DNA of 64,000 bases from Candidatus Pacearchaeota archaeon (lineage in GTDB: Archaea > Nanobdellota > Nanobdellia > Pacearchaeales > GW2011-AR1). The notes below the pieces were generated by a model. It did no database searches. It was not told where the DNA came from and saw only the letters and a program-made list of their open reading frames with translations. A program made the translations under genes and the position numbers. The stretch covers positions 191,269 through 255,268 of the forward strand of contig JBNLBP010000001.1 of NCBI GenBank assembly GCA_050302495.1, read 5' to 3'. This document shows, piece after piece, positions 6,869 through 63,961 of the stretch. The number at the start of each line of letters is the position of its first letter. Position 1 is the stretch's first letter.

Positions 6869-7315
6869 ATGAACTGGAGCTACTTTGCTGGATTTATGGA
6901 CGGAGAAGGTTCCATTATTCTTAAACCTCCTAGAGTTAGACTTTATGTGGCAAACACCAATAAGCAAGTTTTAGAAGAAATTAGTAATTTTCTTGGTTGT
7001 GGTAAAGTTTACGATATAAATATGAAAAACAAAAGTGATAAATGGAGTAAACAATATGGTTGGACGATTGCCAATCATAAAGATGTTCTTAGGATTTTGA
7101 AAGGTTTGAAAAACAGATTAATAATTAAAAAACAACTTTGTCAGGATGCAATTAAGTATATTGAAAATAAACGATGGCAGAGGAACTATTTATCCAAGGA
7201 AGAATTGCAAAAGTGGGTTTATTTAAAATCCAGTCGAAAAATTGCCAGAAAATTAGGTGTTAGTCAATCTGCAGTTTTAAATTATCTTAAGAAGTATGGA
7301 ATTTATTATCGGTAA
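6869..7315 (+). CDS. LAGLIDADG homing endonuclease-like protein (single motif, with C-terminal HTH)
   Basis: N-terminal YFAGFMDGEGSI is a near-canonical LAGLIDADG motif. C-terminal SRKIARKLGVSQSAVLNYLKKYG looks like an HTH. 148 aa. Starts 107 nt from the tRNA-Thr 5' end and abuts rps3ae tail-to-tail. Confidence 0.7.
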   Translation: MNWSYFAGFMDGEGSIILKPPRVRLYVANTNKQVLEEISNFLGCGKVYDINMKNKSDKWSKQYGWTIANHKDVLRILKGLKNRLIIKKQLCQDAIKYIENKRWQRNYLSKEELQKWVYLKSSRKIARKLGVSQSAVLNYLKKYGIYYR

Positions 7316-14300: not shown

Positions 14301-17300
14301 TAAGGTTGTTGATCAACAGGAATTTATGAAGGATTATTCTCAGATTGGATCTGATTCTTTAGTGGGCTTGGGTAATACTTTCGTCGATCCTACTGGTAAA
14401 AATGAACCTCTTGAGATTGATGAAATTAAGAATTTGTTAAGTTACCAGGGTTGGGAAAGTGGTATCTATAGCATAGATGATCTTAAAGATATAGAGCTTT
14501 ATGCAACTTTAGTTAAGAGTACAAATGATGCTGAGAGCAAGAAGTCTTACAGCCAAACACTTTACTCTTTGCTTTATGACGTTCAAAATAACGCAGGGAA
14601 TTTTGTAGAAAGAACTTCTTTCTTTGACAAGTATTCTCTAGAGGGTCACCAGGGAGGATTTATTTCTTCAGATGATAAGATAAAGAGAATTCAGGTTTCT
14701 GATTTAAAGACTTGGGCAGATGTTGAAAGTTCATATCCTGGAGGGATGAGTGTTGTTTTACTTCCAAATTCGATTATCTTCCCTGGAAACCCTGCAGATT
14801 ATCTTATTGCGGATAATGAATTGGTTTATCCGGTTGTTGATATAGCTACTAATAGGGAATATCTTTTGGTTTTGAATGATGATTATATTGTTACTAGAAC
14901 ATTCCAGTTAAATCCTTTGAATGGTCAGTTGGTTATGGTTAATGATAAAGTAAACCCTCTGAGTTTAGCTTTTGATAAATATGATGAAGGTTCATATGAG
15001 AATAGTTATAAGAATCCAGAAGTAAGGTATTATGAGGAAGACCCTTACAAAGGTTATCCTGCGATTGTTCCTTTAGATACAAATGATGGTTGGTATGCTG
15101 CAACTAAACCTAAGCTTCCTGTTGGAAGTCAGATTACTGCTTATGATGCTTCAGGTAGATTGAATAGTTTCTGGTTATGTAACGTTGGATCTAATGGTTT
15201 GGAAGAATTTTCTAGTTCTGGTTTAGGAGATGATATTTGCCAACAAATTAATGTGGGGGTTCCTGGAACTGTTTATAATCAATTTGCTGGATTGAGTGAA
15301 AGTAAAACTACAAGGCTTGTAACTGATGCTGTTGATTCGATTGAGAAGGCTCAGAGAGCTTATAAGAATGGAGTTAATTCTGTTAGAATCAACGGTCAGA
15401 ATTACAAAGTTGGAGAACCTGCGGTAGAAACTCCCGCAGTTCAGTGTCAAGATTTCATGTCTCCTAAAGAATGTAATTTATTGTTTAATGTTTGTGATCC
15501 TGTTGTTTGTCCTAGCTCAAGATGTGATTTTGGAGGGGCTTACCCTGTTAAGGATGTTGTTCAGACAGGAATAGTTGGAAGTATTGCTCTCTGTGCACCA
15601 AATTATAAAGAGGGGATAAAGGTTCCGGTTTGTACAACAGGTGTTCAAGCTGGTTTGGATTCATGGATAAGTGTCCAGGAATCATATAGGGATTGTTTGC
15701 AGGAAAATTTGGAGAGTGGAGAAACTATTGGTGTTTGTGACGAGATACATAGTGTTTATGCTTGTGAATTCTTTTGGAGACAATCAATACCTTTGGCTAA
15801 AGTAGCTGTTCCAAAATTAATTGGATTAATTTCAGGAGAGAACACCCGTGGTGGAGGAGAATATCTGGGATTACAGAGTGCATGGGATAATGCAAAAGAT
15901 TCTTTAGACTACTTTAAACAATATTATGCTTCTGAATCTTATAATGCTTTCAAAGTTAGAAGTGTTGATGAAGCTGGAACTGCGGTTTGTAAAAGTTATG
16001 TATCTACGGTTTACCCTTCTAGTGCTGAATTATTAGATAGTTTAACTACTCCACGTTCGCCTCCGCAATTTACAGGAAGCTTTGATGAGATTCCATTTAC
16101 TACCGCAACAAATCCTCCCACCTCACAGTATAAGGTTTATTACCACATTTATTCTGGACAAGATTCTGGAGCTTATTACAGAGTTTATCTTAAGGGTGGA
16201 AGTGGGAGTTTCTATCAAGATAGCGCGCTTAATAGAGTAGTTGATTCCGGTTACGTTTCAGTAGGAGATTATGCTTCAGATACAGTTGACTTTACTGCAC
16301 CTTCAGGATATACCCAATTATGTATTGTTGTAAATAATCAGGAAGAGTGTGGTTTCGGAAAAGTGTCAACTTCTTTTGCAGTTAATTATGTTAATGATTT
16401 GTATTTGCAGGAACAAACTACTTCGGGGGTTACAACAGAAGAAGAATGTGTTTCTGGAAGTGCTAGTTTGTATAGCTTATTGAATCCTAACCTTCAAGAT
16501 GTGGCTGAAGGTTTAATCAACCCTGAGCTGTACCAAAAAGGTATTACAAGAGTTTGTGCTACAAACAGCCCTGGTATTGGAACGGATGCTAAGGATGGGA
16601 CTGAAAATGCAAGATGGAGAAAAGTGGGTTACTGTACAGATACAAACGTTGGTTGTTGGCTAGATACTGATTCCGTTAAAGATGCTATTAAATCCTTAGA
16701 TGTTGAGAATTCTGTTTTAAATGACACCGCTCAGAGTTATCTTGATGATTTGGTAAATTCTGGAGATTATGTTAACAATCAGAATTATAGTCAGACTTTA
16801 AGAGACGTTAAGAAAGAATCTGATTCTTCTAAGAAGATAGAAATAATAAATAATATTTTGGATAAGGTATTCTTTAGTAATCAAAAAGCTGAACTTTATT
16901 TCTTGAGAGGTTTGGCTTATGGAGATCTTTCTGGTTTGGAATTTGGTAAGATTGAACAAATAAAAACAAATAGTGTGGACCTTGGAACAATTGTTGATGA
17001 CCAAGGAAACGTTTGCATCTTGCCTCAAGTTCCTAGTGATATTTCTTCAATTGATGATGCTCGGCAAAGAGTATTGAAAGCTGCAGAAAAATTAGATGGG
17101 GGTTTGGCTTTCTCTGGAGATTATGCGTGCTATAGTGCTGCTGTTTATGTATACCAATATGCAGGGGTTTCTGCTGTTCCTTCTTATGCAGATAAATCTG
17201 GGGCCACCTATACCTTAAAGGATTCAAATTCAAAAGTTACAATTGGCGTAGATAAAACTTCTCAAGGAAGTGTTATTTTCCAAGTTGGAACAGGTTATAA

Positions 17301-20813: not shown

Positions 20814-21551
20814 ATGGAGATTACAGAAGGTCTTTCGGAAATATTTGGAATGTTTGCAGCAGATGGGAATTTGCAGGAGAATCATATTAGTATGTGGGGC
20901 AATATTCATGAAGATAAGGAATACTATGATAGGGTTGTTTGCCCTTTGTTTTCTAAAGTATTTGGAATAAATGTAAATGCACATGAGAAAGAAAGCAATT
21001 CTGTTTATGGGTTTTACATCTGTAGGAAGGAGATAATTAAGATTTTCAAGGATTTTGGTTTTACTCGTAGAAAGACCTATTCGGTAAAAATTCCACATGA
21101 AATTTTATTTTCTAAAGACAAGAACATAATTTCGGCTTTTATAAGGGGTTTTGCTGATTGTGATGGTTGTTTAAATTTTATGAAACGTTATGAAAAAGGA
21201 TATTCTTCTTTTAAGAGAAAATATCATACTTATCCGAGGATTTTTATTGGTGTTGTTTCTAAGCAAATTATTTTTGATTTGAGTTTTTTGTTGGATTTCT
21301 TGAACATTGGCCATTCTGTTCACTTTTCTTCAAAGAAGAAGGTTAATGAGGCAGATGTTTATCGGATTGCTGTTAGGGGTCCAGAAAGAATAAATAAATG
21401 GATGGATTCTATAGGTTTCAATAATTACTCTAAATTTACGAAATATCTTGTCTGGAAAAAACATGGTTTTTGTCCAACCCCTTCTTCTCTTAAACAAAGA
21501 GAATTGATCTTGCAAAATGAATTAATTCCAGAAAGTCTTTATGAAATGTAA
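20814..21551 (+). CDS. LAGLIDADG homing endonuclease-like protein (double motif)
   Basis: Two dodecapeptide-like motifs, IFGMFAADGNL and FIRGFADCDGCL, about 100 aa apart. ATG at 20814. Stop lies 35 nt upstream of the intron-containing tRNA-Leu. Confidence 0.7.
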   Translation: MEITEGLSEIFGMFAADGNLQENHISMWGNIHEDKEYYDRVVCPLFSKVFGINVNAHEKESNSVYGFYICRKEIIKIFKDFGFTRRKTYSVKIPHEILFSKDKNIISAFIRGFADCDGCLNFMKRYEKGYSSFKRKYHTYPRIFIGVVSKQIIFDLSFLLDFLNIGHSVHFSSKKKVNEADVYRIAVRGPERINKWMDSIGFNNYSKFTKYLVWKKHGFCPTPSSLKQRELILQNELIPESLYEM

Positions 21552-21561: not shown

Positions 21562-21585
21562 CCCTATTTTATATGATTATAATAT

Positions 21586-21711
21586 GCTCCGGTAACTCAG
21601 CCTGGATAGAGTGCCAGATAAATTGAATAAAATGAGATTTAGGCAAACCTTCTATCCAGTTAAGTCTGGAAAGTAAGCTGGAAGTCGCAGGTTCGAATCC
21701 TGTCCGGGGCA
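21586..21711 (+). tRNA. class-II tRNA, probably tRNA-Leu (anticodon TAA), with an about 41-nt intron at a non-canonical position
   Basis: Acceptor GCTCCGG/CCGGGGC + A, D-arm ACTC-AGCCTGGATA-GAGT (Leu-like AGCCTGG loop), T-arm GCAGG-TTCGAAT-CCTGT. Total 126 nt; a class-II tRNA of about 85 nt would leave an intron of about 41 nt. The only canonical loop reading is U33-UAA-G37 (TTAAG at 21660-21664). This forces the intron (about 21619-21659) to lie after position 32 rather than 37. A 9-bp helix CTGGATAGA (21603-21611) / TCTATCCAG (21651-21659) spans it. Exact junctions unresolved. Confidence 0.6.
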
Positions 21712-21718
21712 TTTATCT

Positions 21719-27015: not shown

Positions 27016-27045
27016 CTTTTTATACACTACTTGTTTATTTTTAGT

Positions 27046-28698
27046 ATGTACATAGCAAAACAGAAAATTAATGGAAAAGATTATTTTTATCTTAGGAAAG
27101 CTGTTCGTGAAAATGGAAAAGTTGTAAGTAAACACATGGCTTATTTGGGGAAAACTCGTGATGAGGCTGAAAAAAAGATGACAGAAATTCTTAAAAATAG
27201 AAATGATGCTAATCAAGATATGGAAACGATTCAAGAAGAAAATCAAGATGTTTTGAAGAGAAAAGATGTTTCTGTTGAAGAACTTGCTAAGTTTTGTAAG
27301 GAGAAGGGTTTTGTTTATAGATCAAGCGATATTTATGGAGGTTTTGCTGGTTTTTGGGACTATGGTCCTTTAGGTGTTGAGTTGTTTAATAATATAAAGA
27401 AGGAATGGTGGAATTTCTTTGTTCATGATAAAGACAACATGGTGGGTATGGAGGGGTCTATAATTTCCCACCCTAGAACTTGGAAGGCTTCGGGTCATTT
27501 AGACAATTTTGCTGATGTTTTTGTTAAATGTAAGAAATGCGGAAAGACTGGAAAGTTAGATGAAAATGAAGTTGGTAAAGTTAATTGTCCTGATTGCGGA
27601 GGAGAGTATGAATCTCAAGGTAAATTTAATTTAATGTTTGGAACTGATGTGGGTGTTGGAGAAAGCACACAGAAAGCTTATCTTAGAGGAGAAACTGCTC
27701 AAGGAATGTTTTTGGATTTTAAATTGATCTCTCAAACTACTAGGCAACAATTGCCTTTTGGTGTTGCACAGATTGGAAGATGTTTTAGGAATGAGATTGC
27801 TCCGAGAGACTTTTTGTTTAGAAGTAGGGAATTTCATATAGGAGAATTTGAATTTTTTATTAACCCTGAAGATGAGAAGTGTGATTTACTTGATGAAGAA
27901 CATTTGAATGTTAAATTTAGTTTCTTATCTGAAGAGAATCAAAAGAATGATTCTAACTCTCTTGAGAAGGCAACAATAAAAGAATTAATTGAGAAAAAAA
28001 AGTTGGGTGAATGGCACGCTTATTGGCTTGCTGAACAAATAATTTGGTTTAGAAGATTAAATTTAGACGAAATTAAAATTAGAGAGCATACAAAAGATGA
28101 ATTGAGTCATTATAGCTCTGCAACTTTTGATATTGACTACGAATATCCTTTTGGTTCAAAAGAAGTTGCAGGAAATGCTAACCGTGGCCAGTATGATTTA
28201 ACACAACATCAAAAAGAAAGTAAGGAAAAAATGGAAATTTTCGACGAGAGAACTGGCAAAAAGGTTATTCCGAGAGTTATAGAGCCTACCTTTGGTATTG
28301 AAAGAATATTTTTGGCTGTTTTGACCAAATCTTATTGCGTTGATGATAAAGATAATACTGTTTTGAAACTTCCGTTTAGGCTTTCGCCTATAAAAGCTGC
28401 AGTTTTTCCTTTGATTAAAAGAGAAGACTTTGATGTTTTATCGAAAGATATTGTTAGAAATTTGAAAAAAGAATTTAATGTTGTTTATGACAAGTCGGGA
28501 AGTATTGGAAGAAGATATGCAAGAAATGATGAAGTGGGTACACCTTTTTGTATAACTATCGACGAGGATTCACTAAAAAATAAAGATGTAACTTTAAGAT
28601 TTAGAGATACAAAAGAACAAAAAAGAATTTTGATCAAGGATTTAAGAAATATTTTAAGAGATTTGCTTGATGGAGAGAAAAATTTCTCAGATTTGTAA
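27046..28698 (+). CDS. glyS: glycyl-tRNA synthetase (archaeal/eukaryal dimeric type)
   Basis: FVYRSSDIYGGFAGFWDYGPLGVELFNNIKKEWW and class-II motifs throughout. ATG at 27046; the ORF-track start at 27031 is TTG. Confidence 0.9.
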   Translation: MYIAKQKINGKDYFYLRKAVRENGKVVSKHMAYLGKTRDEAEKKMTEILKNRNDANQDMETIQEENQDVLKRKDVSVEELAKFCKEKGFVYRSSDIYGGFAGFWDYGPLGVELFNNIKKEWWNFFVHDKDNMVGMEGSIISHPRTWKASGHLDNFADVFVKCKKCGKTGKLDENEVGKVNCPDCGGEYESQGKFNLMFGTDVGVGESTQKAYLRGETAQGMFLDFKLISQTTRQQLPFGVAQIGRCFRNEIAPRDFLFRSREFHIGEFEFFINPEDEKCDLLDEEHLNVKFSFLSEENQKNDSNSLEKATIKELIEKKKLGEWHAYWLAEQIIWFRRLNLDEIKIREHTKDELSHYSSATFDIDYEYPFGSKEVAGNANRGQYDLTQHQKESKEKMEIFDERTGKKVIPRVIEPTFGIERIFLAVLTKSYCVDDKDNTVLKLPFRLSPIKAAVFPLIKREDFDVLSKDIVRNLKKEFNVVYDKSGSIGRRYARNDEVGTPFCITIDEDSLKNKDVTLRFRDTKEQKRILIKDLRNILRDLLDGEKNFSDL

Positions 28699-28822
28699 TT
28701 ATTTTATCTCCGACGGTAAAAACTAATTTTTTTATTATAAATTTTTTTACAAAAAATAATTTTACAAAAAGTTTTTAAAGAATTAATACTTGATTCTAGT
28801 AATTAAAAAAGAGGTGGTCGTC

Positions 28823-28984
28823 ATGGCTATGAAAAAGAAAGCAGTGAAGAAAAAGATGCCTAAGAAAAAAATGGCTAAGAAGAAGATGGTGAAAAAGAAA
28901 GCCGTTAAGAAAAAAGCTGTTAAGAAAAAGGCTGTAAAAAAGAAAGCTGCAAAGAAAAAGACTGTTAAAAAGAAAAAGAGATAA
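28823..28984 (+). CDS. small lysine-rich basic protein with KKKAVKKK repeats (histone H1 tail-like)
   Basis: MAMKKKAVKKKMPKKKMAKKKMVKKKAVKKKAVKKKAVKKKAAKKKTVKKKKR. ATG at 28823 follows an SD-like AAGAGGTGG by 7 nt. The ORF-track start at 28790 is further upstream. Confidence 0.55.
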   Translation: MAMKKKAVKKKMPKKKMAKKKMVKKKAVKKKAVKKKAVKKKAAKKKTVKKKKR

Positions 28985-29052
28985 TTTGTTTTATTTTTTA
29001 TTTTATTAGTTTAATATGCAAATGAGCGATTTGGTTGCAATGATTTTGGTTT

Positions 29053-29667
29053 TTAGTCACCCTGTTTCAGGGTTGATTTTATTGTTTTTATTATAGTATT
29101 GTTTTTTGATTCTTTTTTTATTAATTTGTAATCGCTAGGTATTATCTTTGATTTGTTCTTGTTTATTTCTGTTAATTTTATATTATTTTTTGTTGTAGCT
29201 GTTATAAGAATTAATATGAAGGAATTAATTATTTTTTTGTTTTTTACTAAGTGTTCTAGTGATATTGAATTTATTTTTTTAAGTGATATGTCAACATTGT
29301 GTTTTTCTTTCATTATCCTTTTTGCTGCTGTTTCAATTTCCTCTCCTTGTAATAATCTTCCTCCAGGAAGACTTAGTAGATTTTTGTATGGTCTTTTTTC
29401 TCTTTTTTGGAGGAATGCTTCGTTTTTGTTCCCAATTAATATAAGTATTACAGGTAAGGTTGAATTCTTTTCAGATAGATAAGGTATTATATTTTCAGAC
29501 CCTTCGCTTAACTGGTAAAATTCTTTTTGTTTAGTGATTATTCCTTTTTTTAAGAGTTTTTTTAGGTGATAGTCTAGCTTGTTTGATCTTACTTTTAGAT
29601 ATTTTTCGATTTCGCTGAATTTTAATTTATTCTCTGTAAGAAAGAGTTTTAGTATTTCTTTTTCCAT
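29053..29667 (-). CDS. winged-HTH / Nudix-domain fusion protein (putative Nudix-related regulator)
   Basis: The N-terminal about 55 aa look like a wHTH (KFSEIEKYLKVRSNKLDYHLKKLLKKGII). A degenerate Nudix box follows (GGRLLQGEEIETAAKRIMKEKHNV; Gx5E ok, REx2EE degraded to RIx2EK). Confidence 0.55.
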   Translation of the reverse strand: MEKEILKLFLTENKLKFSEIEKYLKVRSNKLDYHLKKLLKKGIITKQKEFYQLSEGSENIIPYLSEKNSTLPVILILIGNKNEAFLQKREKRPYKNLLSLPGGRLLQGEEIETAAKRIMKEKHNVDISLKKINSISLEHLVKNKKIINSFILILITATTKNNIKLTEINKNKSKIIPSDYKLIKKESKNNTIIKTIKSTLKQGD

Positions 29668-29726
29668 TATCCTTAAGTCAATTTTTTTGAGGAATTATTT
29701 AAATATTATTGTGATAAAATTTTTCT

Positions 29727-30224
29727 ATGTCCAATAAAAATCTTACTCATTTTGTTGTTGTTACAGGAATAATTGTTAATCAAGAAGGTAAATTTTTGGT
29801 TGTTAAACGTGCTGATTGGGAAAAAGCTTTCCCTGGGAGGTGGACTGTTCCAGGAGGTAAGTTAGAAGTTTTAGATTATGTTCTTAGAAATAAAGATACT
29901 CCTCACCATTGGTATAATGTTTTGGAAGATTTGTTAAAAAAGGAAGTTAAGGAAGAGGTTGGACTTGAGATTCAAAACATAGATTATGTTACTAGCATGG
30001 TTTATATTCGTCCAGACAAGGTTCCTTGTTTGATTGTTAGTTTATTTGCTGAACTCCTTAAAGAAACAAATGTTAATCTGTGTAATGCTTTAATTGAATA
30101 TGCTTGGGTGAGCTTGGAAGAGGCTAAAAATTACGATTTAATTGAAGGAATTTATGATGAATTGGTCATTCTTGATAGAAAAATTAATGGTGAGAAAACT
30201 GTTTGGAAAGGTAACAATATATAA
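29727..30224 (+). CDS. Nudix hydrolase
   Basis: Nudix box GGKLEV...EDLLKKEVKEEVGLEI (E-x2-EE-x-G-u). Divergent from the wHTH-Nudix gene. Confidence 0.7.
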   Translation: MSNKNLTHFVVVTGIIVNQEGKFLVVKRADWEKAFPGRWTVPGGKLEVLDYVLRNKDTPHHWYNVLEDLLKKEVKEEVGLEIQNIDYVTSMVYIRPDKVPCLIVSLFAELLKETNVNLCNALIEYAWVSLEEAKNYDLIEGIYDELVILDRKINGEKTVWKGNNI

Positions 30225-30254
30225 TTTTTTAAACTTGTTTTGTTTTTTGGTTTT

Positions 30255-30602
30255 ATGGAAGATTGCATTTTTTGTAAGATAGCTTCTGGTGAAGTTACCT
30301 CAGATAAAATCTATGAAAATGATAGCTTTTTTTCTATGCCAGATAAAAATCAACAGATAGAAGGGCATAGTTTGGTTATATCAAAAAGACACTTTAAGAC
30401 TACTTTAGATATGCCTTCGACTGTTGGTACGGAGTTGTTGGATTGTGTTAAACAAACTGCTTTGAAAGTTTTAGACTCTGAGAAGGCCGATGGATTTAAT
30501 CTTGTTCAGAATAACTTTGAATCTGCAGGACAGGTGGTCAACCATGTTCATTTTCATATACTCCCTAGAAAGAAAGGTGGAAAAGTTCCAAGAGTTTACT
30601 GA
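30255..30602 (+). CDS. HIT family (histidine triad) nucleotide hydrolase/transferase
   Basis: CIFCKI N-terminus and HVHFHILPR histidine triad. Confidence 0.85.
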   Translation: MEDCIFCKIASGEVTSDKIYENDSFFSMPDKNQQIEGHSLVISKRHFKTTLDMPSTVGTELLDCVKQTALKVLDSEKADGFNLVQNNFESAGQVVNHVHFHILPRKKGGKVPRVY

Positions 30603-30667
30603 TTTTTGTGTTTAATTATAGAATAGTTCTAAAATATTATATTATTTTTTGTTTTGTATTTGTTGTG

Positions 30668-31447
30668 ATGTTTGATATCAATAAGTTGTCTCATGATGAA
30701 AGATTTGCTCTACTTTATGGAATAATGTTGGGAGATGGATGTTTGTCAAAATATGTTACAAAACAAAAAAGAACGATATTTGGCATATCAATCGTTTGTA
30801 ATTACTACGATGATATTCCTTTTATTAAAGAATTTGTAGCTCCAATAATAAATTCTTTGCGATCTGGGATGAAACCTTTGAGAATTATTAGAAGGCCTGA
30901 AAAAGGAACTGTTGAATTGTTCTTCTCTGATAAAAGTCTTTTTTGCAAAATTAATTCTTTAGGATTTCCTATTGGTAAGAAAGGAACAAAGATAATTATT
31001 CCTGGAGAATTCCATAGGAGAGATCTTGTCAAATATGTTATTCAAGGAATTTTTGCTACGGATGGTAGTTTGGTTTTAACAAAAAATCCTAACAAATTTT
31101 ATCCAAGATTGGAGGTCCATATGATTGCTCATGATTTGATAAGACAAATTCATGAATTCTTGATCGAGAATGGTTTTAATGGTAACATGTATGAATGCAA
31201 AAGGAATAAGGATGAGAGGGGATTTATTAAAATCTTCAAAAAGTTTCGTGTGCAGTTTAATGGGAAAAAGAATTTGATATTGTTTTATAAAAATATCGGA
31301 TTTGTTAATCCTAAACAACTGAAAAAATTCCAGGCATTTATGAGATATGATCGGAAATATCTTTCTTCTAAAAAGGAACTGTTTAATCGGGTAATTTTGA
31401 AAGATATGGCTGCACTGAGATTCGAACTCAGGACCTCAAGCTCATGA
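30668..31447 (+). CDS. LAGLIDADG homing endonuclease-like protein (double motif)
   Basis: LLYGIMLGDGCL and VIQGIFATDGSL motifs. First ATG at 30668; the ORF-track start at 30608 is GTG. The 3' end overlaps tRNA-Met on the opposite strand by 41 nt. Confidence 0.65.
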   Translation: MFDINKLSHDERFALLYGIMLGDGCLSKYVTKQKRTIFGISIVCNYYDDIPFIKEFVAPIINSLRSGMKPLRIIRRPEKGTVELFFSDKSLFCKINSLGFPIGKKGTKIIIPGEFHRRDLVKYVIQGIFATDGSLVLTKNPNKFYPRLEVHMIAHDLIRQIHEFLIENGFNGNMYECKRNKDERGFIKIFKKFRVQFNGKKNLILFYKNIGFVNPKQLKKFQAFMRYDRKYLSSKKELFNRVILKDMAALRFELRTSSS

Positions 31448-31479
31448 GACTTGCGCTCTACCAACTGAGCTATGCAGCC
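31407..31479 (-). tRNA. tRNA-Met (anticodon CAT; elongator, or Ile2-type)
   Basis: Reverse complement GGCTGCA-TA-GCTC-AGTTGGTA-GAGC-G-CAAGT-CTCATGA-GCTTG-AGGTC-CTGAG-TTCGAAT-CTCAG-TGCAGCC-A. G1-C72 argues against an initiator. Confidence 0.85.
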
Positions 31480-31503
31480 TTAATTTATAGAGATCTACCT
31501 ACC

Positions 31504-31511
31504 TTTAAAAG
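31504..31511 (-). promoter_or_regulatory. TATA-like box for tRNA-Met
   Basis: TTTTAAAG on the minus strand, centred about 28 nt upstream. Confidence 0.35.
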
Positions 31512-31526
31512 TTTAAGGTTTTAGAA

Positions 31527-31733
31527 TTATTTAACTTCAAGCTCTGCCTTTTTTATGGCTTCTTGCCTTTTCATTCTAGAAATTAATCCTGCTGTTTTGT
31601 TTCTAAGCTTCTTACTTGGCATTGTATCTCCAAGTATCTTTTTGTTAGTTTCAAAATCTTCTGTAAATGGTAGTCCTTCTTTTATTAGAGTCTCTGAAGT
31701 ACTTCTCATCATCTTTGATTTTATCTTTCCCAT
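31527..31733 (-). CDS. rps17e: 30S ribosomal protein S17e
   Basis: MGKIKSKMMRSTSETLIKEGLPFTEDFETNKK matches the conserved S17e N-terminus (DFETNKK). Confidence 0.8.
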   Translation of the reverse strand: MGKIKSKMMRSTSETLIKEGLPFTEDFETNKKILGDTMPSKKLRNKTAGLISRMKRQEAIKKAELEVK

Positions 31734-31771
31734 GATTAATTCTAAACTATTTCGTTTTTAAAGCTTTCTTA

Positions 31772-32674
31772 TCAAATTTTTTGTATATCTGACATGTTTT
31801 TTAGTGCCTCAATTAGGTTTATTGTCTTTTTTAGAGGTTCTGCAGTGCTTAGTATTGCGTACTTTAGGTTTAAGTCCTGTGCTTTTTTGTTTGCTGCAAT
31901 TATCTCTTTTTCTCCTGCTTTCTTTTTGTAGGCCACGAGTAATTGTTCTTCTTGGTTTTTTCTTACTTTAAATGTTAATTCAGATTTCCCTATTGAAACT
32001 AGGTCTATAATTTCTATGTTATTTTGCGAAAGGTATTCTTTTACCATATTAAAGAATTTATCATCTTGTTTGCTTGCGGTTTTCTTTTTAGAGGTTTTTT
32101 TTGGTTTATCCTTTTTTTCTTTGGGTTCTTCTTTCTCAAATATGTCTAATTCCTCTTTTTTGCTTTCTTGAGAGGGATTTTCTTTTATTTTTGGTTCTTG
32201 AGTTTCTTTAGGTTTTTGGATTTCTTCTCTTTTTTCTTCGGGATTCTTATCTGGGATCCTTACTTCTTCTTCCGATGCTATAAAATACTTCCAATACAAT
32301 TCATTATTCTTCTCTTGAGGTATTGCAAAATCTCTTATTTCTCGCAACGCAACACGTATTGCTGGTTCTTGTTCAGTATCCTTTAGAATTTTATTTTCTT
32401 GGAGTTTTATGAAAGCTTCTTTTTCTTTGCTTTTTAGGTATTTTATTGCAAAACTTTCTAATTGAGACTCTTGTCCTGGAATGTAGTATATGGGAGAACT
32501 TCCTACTTTCATATTAGTTATTTTAATTTGCTTTTCTGAGAGTAGTTCTGAGAGGAATGCGGAAGTGAATAGAATGCTTGTTTGTATTTCGCTGGCTATG
32601 GGCGATGGAAAACCTGGGCCTTTTGCGTTCAGAATTGAAATTATCCTCTCTTTTATTTTGTTTGTATCAAGCAT
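31772..32674 (-). CDS. hypothetical winged-helix protein with long charged K/E linker
   Basis: N-terminal wH-like segment (ISILNAKGPGF...KVGSSPIYYIPGQ), central KEKKDKPKK low-complexity region, and a conserved-looking C-terminal domain. Confidence 0.5.
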   Translation of the reverse strand: MLDTNKIKERIISILNAKGPGFPSPIASEIQTSILFTSAFLSELLSEKQIKITNMKVGSSPIYYIPGQESQLESFAIKYLKSKEKEAFIKLQENKILKDTEQEPAIRVALREIRDFAIPQEKNNELYWKYFIASEEEVRIPDKNPEEKREEIQKPKETQEPKIKENPSQESKKEELDIFEKEEPKEKKDKPKKTSKKKTASKQDDKFFNMVKEYLSQNNIEIIDLVSIGKSELTFKVRKNQEEQLLVAYKKKAGEKEIIAANKKAQDLNLKYAILSTAEPLKKTINLIEALKNMSDIQKI

Positions 32675-32744
32675 AATCTAGAAAAATTATTCTGTGTTAT
32701 AAATATTTGGTTAATTTTATAAATAGTTCTTATTTCTGGATTTT

Positions 32745-33140
32745 ATGGATGTAAAAGATGAAGATTATTACGGGGATTTGATCTTGGATTTAAATCGAAG
32801 TATGGAGGAAAGAATTCAGGGCGCTTTTCAGCTTGAAAATGCTAAAAAAGAAGAGAATCTTATGAAATTGGTTAAAGGTTTATTTACTGATCCTTCTCCT
32901 ATTGTTCGGCATGAATTTGCCTTTTCTTTGGGTGAAACGGGTAGAGGAGATCTTATTGGGAAATATTTGATGAAATCTGTTGAAGAAGATTATAATTTGT
33001 TTGTGAGGCATGAGGCAATATTGGCCTTATCTACTTTAGGAGATAAAGATTTCATTCCGTTTGTTAAGAAATTTTTAGATGCTCCAGAGAAGGAGATGTC
33101 AGAGAGTGCGGAGATTGCTTTGCAGAGACTTGAGAGCTAG
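32745..33140 (+). CDS. HEAT-repeat protein (PBS-lyase-like repeats)
   Basis: Repeated VRHEFAFSLGETG / VRHEAILALSTLGD units typical of PBS-lyase HEAT repeats. 4-nt overlap with convergent endA. Confidence 0.55.
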   Translation: MDVKDEDYYGDLILDLNRSMEERIQGAFQLENAKKEENLMKLVKGLFTDPSPIVRHEFAFSLGETGRGDLIGKYLMKSVEEDYNLFVRHEAILALSTLGDKDFIPFVKKFLDAPEKEMSESAEIALQRLES

Positions 33141-33661
33141 GTTCTAATCCACCTAATTTCGTAATAAGAAATATCGGATTCTTCATCAACTATTGCAATT
33201 AGTAAGTTCTTTTTTGTGCTATGCGCTACACGGTTTTTTGCAGAGAATTCATGCCATGAAAATTTCTTTGATTCGTGTTCGCAGAAAACAATCCACTTTG
33301 AATGTTGGTTTTTTTGTCCTACTTTCACGCCTTTTGGATACACTCTGAAATCTGCTCCAAATTTTAATGCTGTTTTTACTACATATCCTTTTTCTCTTAA
33401 ATCCTTGAATACAGGATATTTTAGTTGAATTCTTGAATCTATTCTTTTTATTTTGTTGAACAATTCGTTGTGACTTAGCACTTTATTTTTTTGTAACACC
33501 TCAATTTTATTTTTTTCTAAAAGATATAATGCTTCTGATAAAGTATATTGTATTTTTTGTCCAGATTGTTCTCCGAATTGAGATTTCTTTTGTAACGTGA
33601 ATGCTTCTGATTCGTTTGTGGAGATTGTTTCTCCAATTAAGTGTGCTTGAATCTTTTTCAT
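33137..33661 (-). CDS. endA: tRNA-splicing endonuclease (EndA)
   Basis: C-terminal catalytic domain ALKFGADFRVYPKG...HSKWIV (conserved Y-H-K arrangement of archaeal EndA). 174 aa. Confidence 0.8.
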   Translation of the reverse strand: MKKIQAHLIGETISTNESEAFTLQKKSQFGEQSGQKIQYTLSEALYLLEKNKIEVLQKNKVLSHNELFNKIKRIDSRIQLKYPVFKDLREKGYVVKTALKFGADFRVYPKGVKVGQKNQHSKWIVFCEHESKKFSWHEFSAKNRVAHSTKKNLLIAIVDEESDISYYEIRWIRT

Positions 33662-61278: not shown

Positions 61279-62403
61279 TCAAAAGGAGATTTCTCCTCCA
61301 CCAATACATTTCTCTCCTTGGTATAAAACAACAGCTTGTCCTTCAGATACCCCTGTTATTGATTCTTTAAGTGTGATCTTCCATTTTTTATTTTTGTATT
61401 CCAATATGCTTGGAAGTAATTCTCCAACATGCCTTATTCTAGATAAGACTTTTGTTTTTTTCTTCTCAAAAGTTGTTTTCTTATCGGATATTAAATAGAA
61501 ATTCTTTACAATTATATTTTTACGGAAATTTAAAAGATGGTCTTTTGGTGCTGCAATGATTGTATTTTTCTTTATGTCCTTCCTTGCTACGTACCATCTT
61601 TCAATTTTTTCATGAGAATTCTTTTGTCTTTCTACTTCAAATCCGTATCTTGGGCCAAGTCTTTCACCTATTGTGTAATAAAATATTCCATCATGTTTTC
61701 CTATAATGTTTCCTTCAGGATCTAATATTTTTCCTGGTTTAGGGGGGATCTTTTTTCTAAGGAAATCTTTGAAATTTATTTTCCCTATGAAACAAATTCC
61801 TACTGTTCCTTTTTTATTGTAATTTGGAAAATGATTCTTTTCTGCTATTTCTCGGATTTGTTTTTTTGTATAGTTGCCTATTGGAAATAATGTGTGCCTT
61901 AATTCAGATTCTTTGGTTCTATATAGGAAATACGATTGATCTTTTGATTCATCCAAACCTCTATATAATTCGTATTTCTTCGTCTTAGGATTTTGTTTGA
62001 CTCGGGCATAATGCCCTGTAGCAATAATATCTATTTTACGTTTCTTTGCTTCTTTTAGTAATAAAGGGAATTTTATTTTTTGGTTACAATCTATATCTGG
62101 ATTTGGTGTAATTCCTTTTTTGTATTTTTCAAACATTTTTTCAATAACGTCTTTTCTGTAGATTTTTTCAAAATCAAGGGTTATTAGGGGAATGTTTAAT
62201 TTAGAAGCGATTTTTATTGCCATTTTTCTCTCTCCACGCCAGGCACATATCCCAGTTAGAGGGTCTTTTGTATCTGACCAATTCTTCATGAATGCACCTA
62301 TAACTTCATACCCTTGTTTTTTTAGTATTAGCGCAGCTATTGAGGAATCTACTCCTCCAGACATTGCTAGAAGAACTTTTTGTTTTTTTGTTTGAGATTT
62401 CAT
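61279..62403 (-). CDS. mnmA: tRNA-specific 2-thiouridylase MnmA (bacterial-type)
   Basis: PP-loop LLAMSGGVDSS, GAFMKNW, TPNPDIDCNQKIKF, ATGHYAR are all MnmA hallmarks. Confidence 0.85.
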   Translation of the reverse strand: MKSQTKKQKVLLAMSGGVDSSIAALILKKQGYEVIGAFMKNWSDTKDPLTGICAWRGERKMAIKIASKLNIPLITLDFEKIYRKDVIEKMFEKYKKGITPNPDIDCNQKIKFPLLLKEAKKRKIDIIATGHYARVKQNPKTKKYELYRGLDESKDQSYFLYRTKESELRHTLFPIGNYTKKQIREIAEKNHFPNYNKKGTVGICFIGKINFKDFLRKKIPPKPGKILDPEGNIIGKHDGIFYYTIGERLGPRYGFEVERQKNSHEKIERWYVARKDIKKNTIIAAPKDHLLNFRKNIIVKNFYLISDKKTTFEKKKTKVLSRIRHVGELLPSILEYKNKKWKITLKESITGVSEGQAVVLYQGEKCIGGGEISF

Positions 62404-62447
62404 AGAATTGTTAGTAAAATTTGAGTTAAAAAGTTTGGGGGAAAACC

Positions 62448-62455
62448 TTTAAATA
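62448..62455 (+). promoter_or_regulatory. TATA-like box for tRNA-Asn
   Basis: TTTAAATA centred 27-28 nt upstream of the tRNA 5' end. Confidence 0.4.
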
Positions 62456-62478
62456 AGAAAATTATCTTCAGATTTAAT

Positions 62479-62566
62479 GCCCTGGTAGCTCAGTTGGTTA
62501 GAGCGAACGGCTGTTATTTCCCAAACAGATACCGTTAGGTCGCAGGTTCAAGTCCTGCCTGGGGCG
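62479..62566 (+). tRNA. tRNA-Asn (anticodon GTT) with a 14-nt intron at canonical position 37/38
   Basis: GCCCTGG-TA-GCTC-AGTTGGTTA-GAGC-G-AACGG-CTGTTA[TTTCCCAAACAGAT]A-CCGTT-AGGTC-GCAGG-TTCAAGT-CCTGC-CTGGGGC-G. Intron at 62517-62530; its AACAG pairs with loop CTGTT, giving a BHB-like helix. Confidence 0.8.
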
Positions 62567-63609
62567 TATTTCCTTCTTTTATTACATATTTCTAGTAGGT
62601 CTTGATGACCTATTTTTCCTTTAATTAATGCTATTCGTTCTGTTGTTTTTGAATTTGGGAAAGTATTTCTAAATTTTATGTAACATTCATATTTTGAAAG
62701 GTGTTTTATATTGTTTAATTTCCATTTATTTATTATTTCTATTGCTCCTTTTTTGTTGATGTAGAATCTTCCGTATCCTTTATATTTTGTTAGTTTAAAC
62801 TTGATTTTGTTTTTTGTGAATATTTCTGCTAGTTGGTCAAGAATAGTAAAACTTGCTAATTTTCCTGTGATTGCTATCGAACTTGTTATACTAAAATCGG
62901 TATCAATAATCCCTGCAGCACATCTTTTTGATAACTCTTTGTTTTTCATTATTTCTCCAGGAATTTTTATTTTTTTCTTGTTTCCAGAATCTAATTTTAG
63001 AATATTCTTTTTAAATTCTGTCACGGCTCTGGACTTAATTCTTGTTTCAATGGAATTTTTTGATGGTCTTTCTATAATTGTTGGTTTTATTCCATAAATC
63101 TTATGTAATAATTCTTTGAGATGCTTTTTGTGATATATTTCTTCATCTTTTAAATCTCCAGTAATTGTGTAAACATAATATTTTATTCCATCTTTTCTTG
63201 GTGCATTTTGCAGATTTCCGTCTCCTATATGTATTCCTACCTCTTCCGCTAGATCTCCTGTTATTTCTTTTGGTATTCTTACTCTTCTCTTTATGTCTGG
63301 CCAAGAAAGATGTACTTCTGAATGATGTTCAATATCTTTAAAGAAGATTTTGTAAAGATTTTTTGTAGATCCAAATTTTTGTCTTATTACTACATCACTC
63401 CCGTATCCTGCAATCCAAGTTGTTATGTAAGAATTTATTTGTCTAAACTTTTCATATTGTATTCTTGCAGCTTCAATTAATCTTGTTTTTGGGTCTTTTA
63501 TTTTCCTAATGTTTTCTATTTTTGATGAAGATATTTTGAATTCTTTTTCAGGAATATTTAATCTTTCTTCTTTCGGCAACTCTCTCCATTTTTTCTTTAT
63601 AGAAATCAT
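62548..63609 (-). CDS. LAGLIDADG homing endonuclease-like protein (double motif, N-terminal extension)
   Basis: LAEEVGIHIGDGNL and RCAAGIIDTDFSIT motifs after an about 110-aa N-terminal region. ATG at 63607-63609. Last 19 nt overlap the 3' end of tRNA-Asn on the opposite strand. Confidence 0.7.
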   Translation of the reverse strand: MISIKKKWRELPKEERLNIPEKEFKISSSKIENIRKIKDPKTRLIEAARIQYEKFRQINSYITTWIAGYGSDVVIRQKFGSTKNLYKIFFKDIEHHSEVHLSWPDIKRRVRIPKEITGDLAEEVGIHIGDGNLQNAPRKDGIKYYVYTITGDLKDEEIYHKKHLKELLHKIYGIKPTIIERPSKNSIETRIKSRAVTEFKKNILKLDSGNKKKIKIPGEIMKNKELSKRCAAGIIDTDFSITSSIAITGKLASFTILDQLAEIFTKNKIKFKLTKYKGYGRFYINKKGAIEIINKWKLNNIKHLSKYECYIKFRNTFPNSKTTERIALIKGKIGHQDLLEICNKRRKYAPGRT

Positions 63610-63655
63610 TTATTTTTAATATCTATAAAGTATTTATAAGTTTCTATGTCCACTC

Positions 63656-63961
63656 TTAGGCGTTCTTTTCTTTTTTCTTTAATCCGAGGTCTCCTAGGGG
63701 CTTTGGTTGATGCTTTTCGAGGTGGGCATATACATTTCCTATTTTAGAACCCTTTACTATTGAGATTATTGCTTCTTGAGCGTTCTTTATGAATTCTGGC
63801 TCTCCTATTATTCCTATGTTGTTATCTTTTATTTCTAGATAGCAATTAGATAAATCTGAGATTGTTTTTAGGACTTTTCCCCCCTTTCCAATGATTCTAC
63901 CTCTTACTCTTTGGAGGTTCTTTTGATTGCTATATTCTTTTATGTTAAGTGTTTCGAACAC
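63656..63961 (-). CDS. KH-domain RNA-binding protein
   Basis: GRIIGKGGKVLKTISDLSNCYLEI contains the KH GxxG loop. Start codon is GTG (63959-63961) with an in-frame TAG just upstream, so the ORF is complete at 101 aa. Confidence 0.55.
   Translation of the reverse strand: MFETLNIKEYSNQKNLQRVRGRIIGKGGKVLKTISDLSNCYLEIKDNNIGIIGEPEFIKNAQEAIISIVKGSKIGNVYAHLEKHQPKPLGDLGLKKKEKNA

What the first reader, a model, noticed from the sequence alone, without database searches (positions are those of the whole stretch)
62479..63609. tRNA-Asn with canonical 14-nt BHB intron; its 3' end is overlapped by a convergent LAGLIDADG gene
tRNA-Asn(GTT) has a textbook 14-nt intron at 37/38 (62517-62530). The last codons and stop of LAGLIDADG copy 5 lie inside the T-arm and acceptor 3' strand of the tRNA, opposite strand, 62548-62566. 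A tRNA 3' end doubling as the 3' coding end of a putative mobile endonuclease gene implies either very recent insertion using the tRNA end as target, or co-evolution constraining both. The same geometry recurs at tRNA-Met with copy 4.
Basis: seen in the sequence. Interest (0 to 1): 0.55.

Follow-up and report, generated by a model that had tools for sequence, protein, structure and literature searches.

The report
Homing endonuclease gene abutting tRNA-Asn
A gene for a DNA-cutting "selfish" enzyme (LAGLIDADG type) sits tail-to-tail against the asparagine tRNA gene of a tiny DPANN archaeon and runs a few codons into it. The overlap itself is incidental read-through, but the pairing of this enzyme family with particular tRNA genes is strict, widespread and, as far as I could find, undescribed.

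Summary
tRNA-Asn(GTT) lies at 62479-62566 (+) with a 14-nt intron at 37/38. A 353-aa ORF at 62548-63609 (-) ends inside the tRNA's T-loop, giving a 19-nt overlap.

Sequence profiles miss the protein, but its predicted fold is a monomeric double-LAGLIDADG endonuclease of the I-DmoI type, and both catalytic Asp residues are invariant.

The tRNA-encoded tail (APGRT) is unconserved, disordered read-through. Across 12 intact copies (the window plus 11 orthologs), the ORF runs 1-53 nt into the tRNA in seven, stops 2-45 nt short in four, and one was not placed.

What is conserved is the pairing. All 17 loci examined have a convergent tRNA-Asn right after the gene, in two opposite arrangements of the same flanking genes. 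All 54 related metagenome loci that span those flanks lack the gene. Two orthologs are pseudogenes.

Copy 4 is tied to tRNA-Met in the same way. Distant relatives sit inside tRNA introns or against other tRNAs.

Best reading: a free-standing homing-endonuclease lineage dedicated to the 3' edge of tRNA-Asn. It is old, not recent. Cleavage activity and target site are inferred, not shown.

The parts
62479..62566 (+). tRNA-Asn(GTT) gene. Exon 1 is 62479-62516, exon 2 is 62531-62566. CCA is not encoded.
   Evidence: Rfam RF00005, 59.2 bits. ARAGORN -i calls Asn(gtt). Manual parse.
62517..62530 (+). 14-nt intron at the canonical 37/38 position. It forms a relaxed bulge-helix-loop rather than a strict BHB.
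   Evidence: EndA is present in the window at 33137-33661.
62548..63609 (-). 353-aa free-standing double-motif LAGLIDADG endonuclease gene ('copy 5').
62548..62566 (.). 19-nt overlap: stop codon plus codons APGRT, antisense to the T-loop, the T-stem 3' strand and the acceptor 3' strand.
   Evidence: Sequence. The tail is unconserved and low-confidence in the model.
62551..62574 (-). Variable C-terminal tail (residues 346-353) after the last invariant residue, R345 (codon 62575-62577).
   Evidence: Alignment A1. Ortholog table.
63217..63258 (-). LAGLIDADG helix 1 (residues 118-131, ..AEEVGIHIGDG). The putative catalytic D130 is at 63220-63222.
   Evidence: Invariant columns in A1. Helix H118-130 followed by a strand in the model.
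62893..62940 (-). LAGLIDADG helix 2 (residues 224-239, ..CAAGIIDTDF). The putative catalytic D238 is at 62896-62898.
   Evidence: Invariant columns in A1. Helix H224-238 in the model.
63280..63609 (-). N-terminal helical domain of about 110 aa, specific to this subfamily. Function unknown, possibly DNA binding.
62563..62567 (.). GGCGT, the tRNA's last four bases plus the next base. It is repeated at 63659-63663 next to the KH stop codon. This may mark the two edges of a 1096-bp insert.
   Evidence: Comparison with empty sites L090 and L097. A 5-bp repeat could be chance.
63659..63663 (.). Second copy of GGCGT, at the KH-proximal edge of the putative insert.
63656..63961 (-). Flanking KH-domain (PNO1/KRR1-like) gene. 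In HEG-less relatives it ends 2-4 nt (L090, L097) or a few tens of nt from tRNA-Asn.
   Evidence: Pfam. Synteny.
61279..62403 (-). Flanking MnmA-type tRNA 2-thiouridylase gene, used as the anchor to fetch orthologous loci.
   Evidence: Pfam. Loci.
30608..31447 (+). LAGLIDADG 'copy 4'. Its last 41 nt are antisense to tRNA-Met (31407-31479, -). Same geometry as copy 5.

Best explanation
The ORF is a free-standing LAGLIDADG homing-endonuclease gene (HEG). It belongs to a small DPANN (Woesearchaeota / GTDB Nanoarchaeota) lineage whose genomic home is the 3' edge of the tRNA-Asn gene.

Proposed mechanism (inferred). The enzyme recognises a DNA site that is largely inside the conserved tRNA-Asn gene. 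It cuts alleles that lack the HEG. Repair from an HEG-bearing allele then copies the roughly 1.1-kb gene in, immediately outside the mature tRNA sequence, always tail-to-tail with it. Parking at the edge of a tRNA gives a target conserved across species without damaging an essential gene, so no intron or intein is needed.

Because the structured protein ends 8-67 nt from the tRNA end, the reading frame often runs into the antisense tRNA until a stop codon appears. Here the stop is created by the T-loop variant TTCAAGT. The 19-nt overlap is therefore a by-product, not a functional dual coding.

The lineage persists by cycles of gain, decay and loss rather than by one recent insertion.

Shown: the fold, the conserved catalytic residues, the strict tRNA-Asn linkage, the presence/absence polymorphism, the pseudogenes, and the read-through tails. 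Inferred: nuclease activity, the location of the target, and homing by double-strand-break repair.

For: (2) All 17 HEG-bearing loci examined (window, L001-L013, L154, L155, L157) have tRNA-Asn(GTT) convergent and immediately downstream. This includes loci whose other neighbours differ.

(3) The pairing survives two opposite arrangements of the same flanks. One is KH>HEG><tRNA MnmA> (window, L001, L154). The other is KH>tRNA><HEG MnmA> (L002-5, L007). Empty versions of both arrangements exist.

(4) 0 of 80 MnmA-anchored relatives carry the gene. That includes all 54 that span KH to MnmA, and in 30 of those the gap is under 600 nt. On an MnmA tree, HEG-bearing loci fall at three separate places among about 70 HEG-less loci.

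(5) L006 and L013 carry disrupted copies.

(6) The tail is unconserved. The ORF overlaps the tRNA by 1-53 nt in 7 loci and stops 2-45 nt short in 4.

(7) The pattern generalises. Among the 120 best of 374 copy-4 homologs, 39 end in an 'MAALGVEPRTSSS'-type tail, which is antisense tRNA-Met. L159 and L160 confirm the junction at the tRNA 3' end. Of 59 distant relatives, 42 have a tRNA within 400 nt, and ARAGORN places 4 of them inside tRNA introns.

(8) Other endonuclease-like ORFs occupy the same tRNA-Asn locus in HEG-less relatives: an HNH-like ORF inside a group I intron in L136 and a free-standing one in L112.
Against: No cleavage assay exists and no target site has been identified.

Among HEG-bearing genomes the HEG is as diverged as the neighbouring MnmA and KH genes. 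There is therefore no direct sign of horizontal movement. The patchiness could come from losses alone.

An intact ORF with invariant catalytic residues over such divergence could also mean a host-beneficial role.

There is no repeat of the tRNA end longer than 5 bp at the far edge of the insert.

tRNA-Asn sequences of HEG-bearing loci do not cluster together, so no co-conversion signal is visible (inspection).

How the HEG-bearing allele would be immune is unexplained when the tRNA is unchanged and has no intron (L007, L157).

Most data come from MAGs and metagenome contigs, where frameshifts may be assembly errors.
Confidence: 0.6

Rival explanations
1. Domesticated LAGLIDADG protein. Under this reading the gene is no longer selfish and serves the host at the tRNA-Asn locus. 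It could be a DNA-binding regulator of tRNA transcription (as WhiA is a LAGLIDADG-derived regulator), a helper for folding or splicing of the intron-rich pre-tRNA-Asn (maturase-like), or a guard that cuts invaded alleles. The linkage would then reflect function, and the overlap genome compaction.
Against: Absent from all 54 closely related loci that span the site, including the nearest relatives (MnmA 72-81% identical). Disrupted copies sit beside intact tRNA-Asn in L006 and L013. Both catalytic Asp residues are retained, unlike in WhiA (the WhiA point is from general knowledge). Two HEG-bearing loci have intron-less tRNA-Asn (L007, L157), so a splicing role is not general.
Confidence: 0.2
2. 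Same kind of element but a different target ('collaborative homing'). The enzyme would cut intron-less tRNA-Asn inside the gene, for example at the anticodon loop. The introns in the neighbouring tRNA (14-nt BHB type here, group I in L003 and L004, others elsewhere) would make the HEG-bearing allele immune and be carried along with the HEG. This is the arrangement described for free-standing phage endonucleases next to intron-containing genes.
For: Intron enrichment next to the HEG: 15 of 17 versus 25 of 50. ORF-less group I introns at 35/36 in tRNA-Asn right beside the HEG in L003 and L004. L074 has a complete tRNA-Asn nested between a 5' fragment and a 3' fragment of an older copy, as expected after a break in the middle of the gene and sloppy repair. 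The HEG entered two different flanking contexts that share only the tRNA.
Against: The introns of HEG-bearing alleles lie at positions too far apart (D-loop, 35/36, 37/38, T-loop) to interrupt one roughly 20-bp site. L007 and L157 have intact HEGs beside intron-less tRNA-Asn. Half of the HEG-less tRNA-Asn genes also have introns. tRNA-Met next to copy 4 has no intron.
Confidence: 0.15
3. Remnant of an integrase-type integrated element. Archaeal and bacterial islands commonly integrate into tRNA 3' ends, so the LAGLIDADG gene would merely be cargo.
For: The position at a tRNA 3' end is the classic integration site (general knowledge). tRNA fragments are present in L074.
Against: The insert is a single gene of about 1.1 kb between KH and the tRNA, with no integrase. 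No direct repeat of 12 nt or more of the tRNA end was found in any of 9 HEG-bearing loci. No relative was found in the viral contig collection.
Confidence: 0.03
4. Coincidence of gene packing. In a very compact genome, neighbouring genes often overlap by a few codons, so neither the adjacency nor the overlap would have meaning.
For: The genome is dense, and the tail is plain read-through.
Against: 17 of 17 orthologous loci pair with the same tRNA, across rearranged flanks. Family-specific pairing holds for copy 4 with tRNA-Met. 42 of 59 distant relatives are tRNA-linked.
Confidence: 0.03

Closest known systems
I-DmoI / I-Tsp061I (archaeal monomeric double-motif LAGLIDADG homing endonucleases encoded in rRNA BHB introns)
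   Different: This gene is not inside an intron; it is free-standing and convergent to the RNA gene. It has an extra N-terminal domain of about 110 aa. Sequence similarity is below profile thresholds. Associated with a tRNA rather than rRNA.
Phage free-standing homing endonucleases acting on neighbouring genes: T4 SegB in the tRNA gene cluster, and F-CphI next to the intron-containing psbA gene ('collaborative homing'). Recalled from the literature; SegB is mentioned in PMC13096335.
   Same: A free-standing HEG next to the conserved gene it presumably cuts. Possible interplay with ORF-less introns in that gene. Presence/absence polymorphism between relatives.
   Different: Those enzymes are GIY-YIG or HNH types in phage genomes and have been shown to cut. 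Here the enzyme is LAGLIDADG type, in a cellular archaeal chromosome, with a fixed tail-to-tail junction at the tRNA 3' end, and its activity is untested.
Group I introns at 35/36 of tRNA-Asn(GUU) in Patescibacteria, some encoding HNH endonucleases (PMC13011429)
   Same: The same tRNA and the same insertion site occur at this archaeal locus in relatives. L003 and L004 have ORF-less group I introns. L136 has a group I intron holding an HNH-like ORF.
   Different: The window's intron is a 14-nt BHB-type intron at 37/38, not a ribozyme. The LAGLIDADG gene lies outside the tRNA.
Integrase-mediated integration into tRNA 3' ends (for example pNOB8- or SSV-type elements; tRNA disruption model in PMC3293823)
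   Same: Uses the 3' part of a tRNA gene as a conserved landing site. Can leave tRNA fragments (L074).
   Different: No integrase and no att duplication. The insert is a single gene.
WhiA (bacterial LAGLIDADG-derived transcription factor)
   Different: WhiA has lost the catalytic acidic residues and is universally conserved in its clade (general knowledge). This protein keeps both Asp residues and is patchily distributed.

Membership tests
LAGLIDADG homing endonucleases | Two LAGLIDADG helices packed at the domain interface, each ending in a conserved acidic residue | tested here: met
   GIHIGDG (D130) and GIIDTDF (D238) are invariant in 26 sequences. They sit at the C-terminal ends of helices 118-130 and 224-238 in the model.
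LAGLIDADG homing endonucleases | Alpha-beta-beta-alpha-beta-beta-alpha core fold, duplicated within a monomer | tested here: met
LAGLIDADG homing endonucleases | Match to a curated family profile (Pfam LAGLIDADG_1/2/3, NCBIfam) | tested here: not met
   No hit at E<=1 in Pfam and none in NCBIfam for copy 5. A PDB profile search gives only E 0.05-0.15. Copies 1-4 in the window do pass LAGLIDADG_3, and copy 5 matches copy 3 at E 3e-5.
LAGLIDADG homing endonucleases | Site-specific double-strand cleavage of a long (about 20 bp) DNA target | not testable with these tools
   Needs protein expression and a cleavage assay.
LAGLIDADG homing endonucleases | Behaves as a mobile or selfish gene: present or absent at one defined site, with decayed copies | tested here: met
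   0 of 54 spanning relatives carry it. It falls at three separate positions on the MnmA tree. L006 and L013 are disrupted. Caveat: no evidence of recent transfer.
Archaeal BHB (splicing-endonuclease) tRNA intron | Canonical position between nucleotides 37 and 38 | tested here: met
   Manual parse. ARAGORN -i.
Archaeal BHB (splicing-endonuclease) tRNA intron | 3-nt bulge, 4-bp helix, 3-nt bulge at the splice sites | tested here: inconclusive
   The 3' bulge and the central helix are predicted. The 5' site lies in a loop (relaxed bulge-helix-loop form). The strict form is 5 kcal/mol less stable.
Archaeal BHB (splicing-endonuclease) tRNA intron | A splicing endonuclease is encoded by the genome | tested here: met
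   Window 33137-33661 (-) matches tRNA_int_endo at E 5e-28.
Integrase-type tRNA-integrating element | Integrase gene plus a direct repeat of the tRNA 3' part at the far end | tested here: not met
   The insert holds one ORF only. No repeat of 12 nt or more in 9 loci.
Free-standing HEG with intron-protected target (collaborative homing) | The HEG cuts the intron-less allele at the intron insertion site, and the intron confers immunity | not testable with these tools
   Only indirect evidence: introns in 15 of 17 versus 25 of 50. Counter-examples are L007 and L157.
WhiA-like domesticated LAGLIDADG regulators | Loss of catalytic acidic residues and uniform presence in the clade | tested here: not met
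   D130 and D238 are invariant. Distribution is patchy.

The most novel reading that the evidence does not exclude
DPANN and other archaea may harbour a radiation of LAGLIDADG endonucleases in which each subfamily is dedicated to one tRNA gene (Asn, Met, Arg-GCG, His and others). They would live either inside tRNA introns or free-standing at the tRNA's edge. Their repeated cutting and repair would then be a main driver of the odd tRNA gene biology of these lineages: gain and turnover of introns (BHB-type and group I at nearly the same site), flipping of the tRNA gene between fixed neighbours, nested and fragmented tRNA copies, and perhaps split tRNAs. That would tie the long-debated origin of archaeal tRNA introns and tRNA gene disruption to an identifiable, testable enzyme family.
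Probability: 0.25. Interest if true: 0.8.

Novelty: new variant of a known kind. Interest (0 to 1): 0.58.

Why it matters
Homing endonucleases are normally thought to need an intron or intein to sit harmlessly inside a conserved gene. Free-standing ones are best known from phages.

Here a cellular archaeal lineage appears to use the very edge of a tRNA gene as a conserved, harmless landing site. The same logic recurs for other tRNAs and for relatives inside tRNA introns.

If these enzymes cut tRNA genes, they offer a concrete cause for intron gain, tRNA gene inversion and tRNA fragmentation in DPANN archaea. They would also be a source of new compact meganucleases with tRNA-gene targets.

There is a practical point too. 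The overlap and the introns make both the tRNA and the protein easy to mis-annotate. Default ARAGORN miscalled two tRNAs in this window, and Pfam misses the protein.

Tried and rejected
(1) Sequence profiles for copy 5 gave nothing usable: Pfam, NCBIfam and a PDB profile search. The fold search was needed.

(2) The viral contig scan with the family alignment found no relatives, so there is no support for a viral origin.

(3) A search for att-like repeats of the tRNA 3' end in HEG-bearing loci found none of 12 nt or more. The integrase model was dropped.

(4) Co-conversion test: tRNA-Asn sequences of HEG-bearing loci do not resemble each other more than those of HEG-less neighbours. For example, the window's acceptor stem GCCCTGG matches HEG-less L090, not HEG-bearing L154 or L157. 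No signal.

(5) 'Recent insertion': pairwise identities of HEG versus MnmA and KH show no pair in which the HEG is markedly more similar than the host genes.

(6) Intron-as-immunity: the enrichment is real but modest and not phylogenetically corrected. Intron positions are too scattered, and two counter-examples exist. It is kept only as a rival.

(7) Group I search in the four LAGLIDADG-containing tRNA introns (L025, L039, L055, L066) found no ribozyme. Their exact splice junctions and anticodons were not resolved.

(8) Looking up the source record of the window's own protein failed; it is not on record.

(10) Pfam on the HNH-like and single-motif LAGLIDADG-like ORFs at relatives' tRNA-Asn loci: L112 hits HNH weakly (E 0.007), while L136 and L125 have no hit. 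Those calls rest on motifs read by eye.
Full report
WHAT IS THERE

The window is AT-rich (32.7% GC) and archaeal in content: a KH/PNO1-like gene, FtsZ, the splicing endonuclease EndA, and intron-bearing tRNAs. All close homologs come from Woesearchaeota / 'Nanoarchaeota' (DPANN) MAGs.

At 62479-62566 (+) the Rfam tRNA model scores 59.2 bits. Read by hand, it is tRNA-Asn(GTT) with a 14-nt intron at 62517-62530 between positions 37 and 38. ARAGORN with introns enabled agrees. Default ARAGORN miscalls it as Thr.

The intron folds as anticodon stem, 3-nt 3' bulge, and a 4-5 bp helix, with the 5' splice site in a terminal loop. This is a relaxed bulge-helix-loop. The strict 3-4-3 BHB is about 5 kcal/mol less stable. 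EndA is encoded at 33137-33661.

On the opposite strand, ORF 62548..63609 encodes 353 aa. Its stop codon is antisense to T-loop bases 62548-62550. The last five codons (APGRT) lie in the T-arm and acceptor 3' strand.

IS IT A LAGLIDADG ENDONUCLEASE?

Profile libraries say nothing: Pfam, NCBIfam, and a PDB profile search with E 0.05-0.15. Three lines of evidence say yes.
- The protein has the motifs GIHIGDG and GIIDTDF.
- It matches window copy 3, a Pfam LAGLIDADG_3 protein, at E 3e-5.

D130 and D238, at the ends of the two LAGLIDADG helices, are invariant.

Residues 1-110 form an extra helical domain. It is absent from most of the roughly 270-aa relatives and has only weak TetR-like matches.

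THE OVERLAP IS READ-THROUGH

In alignment A1, conservation ends at R345. The tails that follow differ in length and sequence. In the model, confidence falls over the last residues (block means: pLDDT 86 for 341-350, 51 for 351-353).

Across the window and 11 orthologs, the R345-equivalent codon lies 8-67 nt from the tRNA 3' end. The frame runs 1-53 nt into the tRNA in seven loci and stops 2-45 nt before it in four. Tails such as GFEPWTL, ARTRTSDP and CEDSNLGPHD are simply antisense T-arm sequence read in different frames.

In the window, the T-loop variant TTCAAGT happens to give TGA on the other strand.

THE PAIRING WITH tRNA-Asn IS THE REAL SIGNAL

All 13 GTDB loci with an ortholog (39-54% identity) have tRNA-Asn(GTT) convergent and immediately after the gene. 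So do three further loci fetched by exact protein look-up: L154, L155 and L157. In several cases this is visible only by eye, because extra introns hide the tRNA from the tools.

The flanks vary. L001-L007 and L154-L157 share the KH, MnmA, nitroreductase and FtsZ neighbours. L008-L013 do not.

Within the shared neighbourhood there are two arrangements:
- KH> HEG> <tRNA MnmA> in the window, L001 and L154.
- KH> tRNA> <HEG MnmA> in L002-L005 and L007.

So the [tRNA><HEG] module keeps its internal geometry while its orientation between the same neighbours differs.

PRESENCE/ABSENCE

Using MnmA as an anchor, I fetched 80 metagenome loci (MnmA 53-81% identical). None contains the gene (tblastn at 1e-4). 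Of these, 54 span KH to MnmA, and 30 of those have a KH-MnmA gap under 600 nt. The gap in the window is 1253 nt.

Most have KH> tRNA-Asn> MnmA>. Seven have the tRNA inverted as in the window (L076, L090, L097, L109, L116, L123, L144).

In L090 and L097 the KH stop is 2-4 nt from the tRNA 3' end. Deleting window 62563-63658 (1096 bp, bounded by a GGCGT repeat) would recreate such a site. A 5-bp repeat is weak evidence on its own.

On an MnmA neighbour-joining tree, the window nests among HEG-less loci (L074, L075, L076, L081). L154 sits elsewhere, and L002-L007 form an outer clade. The inverted tRNA orientation also appears at five or more separate places.

L006 and L013 carry copies with an in-frame stop and/or a frameshift, next to an intact but intron-rich tRNA-Asn.

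AGE

The nearest homolog is 60% identical. Among HEG-bearing genomes, HEG identity tracks MnmA and KH identity. Window versus L154 is 60 versus 68 and 55. L002 versus L005 is 64 versus 75 and 94. The rest are about 45-60 versus 50-60.

I therefore see no recent transfer. The data fit an old association with repeated loss, and possibly regain from unsampled donors. This is the classical homing-endonuclease cycle (general knowledge: Goddard and Burt model). 'Very recent insertion' is not supported.

GENERALITY

Copy 4 (30608..31447) overlaps tRNA-Met by 41 nt.
- It has 374 homologs. Of the 120 best, 39 end with an MAALGVEPRTSSS-type tail. That is antisense tRNA-Met read up to the anticodon, where TCA gives the stop. 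Another 10 carry other antisense-tRNA tails.
- In L159 the overlap is 42 nt. In L160 the ORF's own stop abuts the tRNA-Met 3' end.
- The neighbourhood aaRS-HIT-HEG-tRNAMet-S17e-x-EndA recurs.

Among 59 distant relatives of copy 5 (Aenigmatarchaeota, Iainarchaeia, Bathyarchaeia, Woese-/Pacearchaeota), 42 have a tRNA within 400 nt:
- 26 have a tRNA directly downstream on the same strand, mostly Arg-GCG, also His.
- 9 are convergent.
- 4 are placed by ARAGORN inside tRNA introns of 661-1419 nt. Those ORFs carry the same AEETGIHIGDG signature, and no group I ribozyme was detected there.
- The remaining 3 have the tRNA upstream of the ORF.

In the window itself, four of five LAGLIDADG ORFs are within about 110 nt of a tRNA.

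THE tRNA-Asn LOCUS IS A HOTSPOT

- Next to the HEG, the tRNA carries BHB-type introns of 13-24 nt at 37/38 (window, L002, L005, L010, L012, L154).
- It carries D-loop or T-loop introns in L001, L006, L008, L009, L011, L013 and L155.
- L003 and L004 have ORF-less group I introns inserted between T35 and T36 (Rfam 81.3 bits).
- In HEG-less L136 a group I intron (92.6 bits) at the same site holds an HNH-like ORF. L112 has a similar ORF free-standing after the tRNA.
- L074 has a complete tRNA-Asn nested between a 5' fragment with its promoter and a 3' fragment of an older copy.
- Introns are commoner beside the HEG: 15 of 17 versus 25 of 50, p=0.009, not corrected for phylogeny.

MECHANISM

The best-supported reading is a free-standing homing endonuclease whose home is the 3' edge of tRNA-Asn. 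A target largely inside the tRNA would explain entry into two flanking contexts that share only the tRNA.

Activity, target and immunity are inferred. The rivals are domestication, an intron-site target with intron immunity, an integrase island, and chance. They are weighed in their own sections.

LITERATURE

Searches found no report of LAGLIDADG-tRNA linkage in DPANN.
- Nawrocki et al. found all 39 archaeal group I introns in rRNA genes (PMC6125680).
- A 2020 preprint dismissed one Pacearchaeota tRNA group I intron as mis-binning (10.1101/2020.01.27.920355).
- Group I introns at 35/36 of tRNA-Asn, some with HNH genes, are described for Patescibacteria (PMC13011429).

The library is limited to open-access papers, so absence of a report is not proof of novelty.

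VERDICT

The overlap is ordinary read-through. The underlying tRNA-dedicated endonuclease lineage is a new variant of a known kind and is worth experimental follow-up.

Noticed in passing
L003:5124-5315(-), L004:5093-5291(-), L136:4379-4589(+): Group I catalytic introns (Rfam RF00028, 81-93 bits) inserted between T35 and T36 of tRNA-Asn(GTT), in contigs with clearly archaeal DPANN synteny (KH/PNO1, aIF-1A, FtsZ). L136's intron also holds an HNH-like ORF (4100-4444). Published archaeal group I introns were all in rRNA (PMC6125680). The same tRNA, site and HEG type are known in Patescibacteria (PMC13011429), which hints at cross-domain exchange.
   Followed up: partly
L074:481-531, 593-680, about 838-853: This is the closest HEG-less relative (MnmA 81%). 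It has a complete tRNA-Asn with a 14-nt intron, nested between a 5' fragment (16 nt plus a promoter region homologous to window 62444-62494) and a 3' fragment (AGTCCTGCCTGGGTCG) of an older tRNA-Asn. This looks like a scar of break repair or gene replacement.
   Followed up: partly
L076, L090, L097, L109, L116, L123, L144 versus the other MnmA loci: tRNA-Asn flips orientation between the same two neighbours (KH and MnmA) at five or more separate places on the MnmA tree. Contigs L076 and L109 end exactly at the tRNA 3' end, which may reflect strain heterogeneity at that junction.
   Followed up: partly
L025:3975-4723, L039:2379-3171, L055:3963-4717, L066:3310-4828: LAGLIDADG ORFs of 220-238 aa sharing the AEETGIHIGDG signature lie between the two halves of tRNA genes (ARAGORN introns of 661-1419 nt). 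No group I ribozyme was detected. They are possibly HEG-bearing BHB introns in archaeal tRNAs. Splice junctions and anticodons were not resolved.
   Followed up: partly
L020, L028, L034, L035, L043, L051, L054, L056, L057, L060, L061, L064, L065, L069 (tRNA at about 4620-4900): A large subfamily of relatives has tRNA-Arg(GCG) directly downstream on the same strand. The open frame often runs 15-96 nt into or through the tRNA. Another set is linked to tRNA-His in the same way.
   Followed up: no
L006:4001-5036, L013:4001-5046: Copy-5 orthologs with an in-frame stop (the W103 codon is TAG in L006) and frameshifts, next to intact, multi-intron tRNA-Asn genes. They are either decaying copies or MAG assembly errors.
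   Followed up: partly
window 6673-6762 (-): Default ARAGORN calls this tRNA-Leu(taa). With introns allowed, and by hand, it is tRNA-Thr(TGT) with an 18-nt intron at 37/38. A single-motif LAGLIDADG plus HTH_50 ORF (6869-7315) lies 106 nt from its 5' end, divergent.
   Followed up: partly
window 21585-21712 (+): An intron-containing tRNA (Rfam 42.5 bits; ARAGORN -i calls Arg(tct) with an intron) that default ARAGORN misses. It lies 34 nt downstream of LAGLIDADG copy 3 (20814-21551), on the same strand.
   Followed up: no
window 27031-33661: Copy 4 sits in a recurrent neighbourhood: class II aaRS, NUDIX, HIT, LAGLIDADG, tRNA-Met, a 300-aa ORF with no Pfam hit, and EndA. The aaRS-HIT-HEG-tRNAMet-S17e-x-EndA order recurs in L159, L160 and two JGI contigs. 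The endonuclease gene is therefore a long-term resident near the tRNA splicing endonuclease gene.
   Followed up: partly
L112:2572-2880, L125:3996-4391(-), L150:104-571(-), L127:1086-1856: Other small nuclease-like ORFs lie at the tRNA-Asn locus of HEG-less relatives. One is a free-standing HNH-like ORF (Pfam HNH E 0.007). Two have an 'LYWGEGDK' LAGLIDADG-like motif with no Pfam hit. One is an HTH-containing ORF that reads into the tRNA.
   Followed up: partly
window 11350-19425 (+): A very large ORF of 2691 aa. Not examined.
   Followed up: no
window 61279-62403 (-): A bacterial-type MnmA tRNA 2-thiouridylase (PF03054, E 2e-71) is conserved next to tRNA-Asn across this DPANN group.
   Followed up: no
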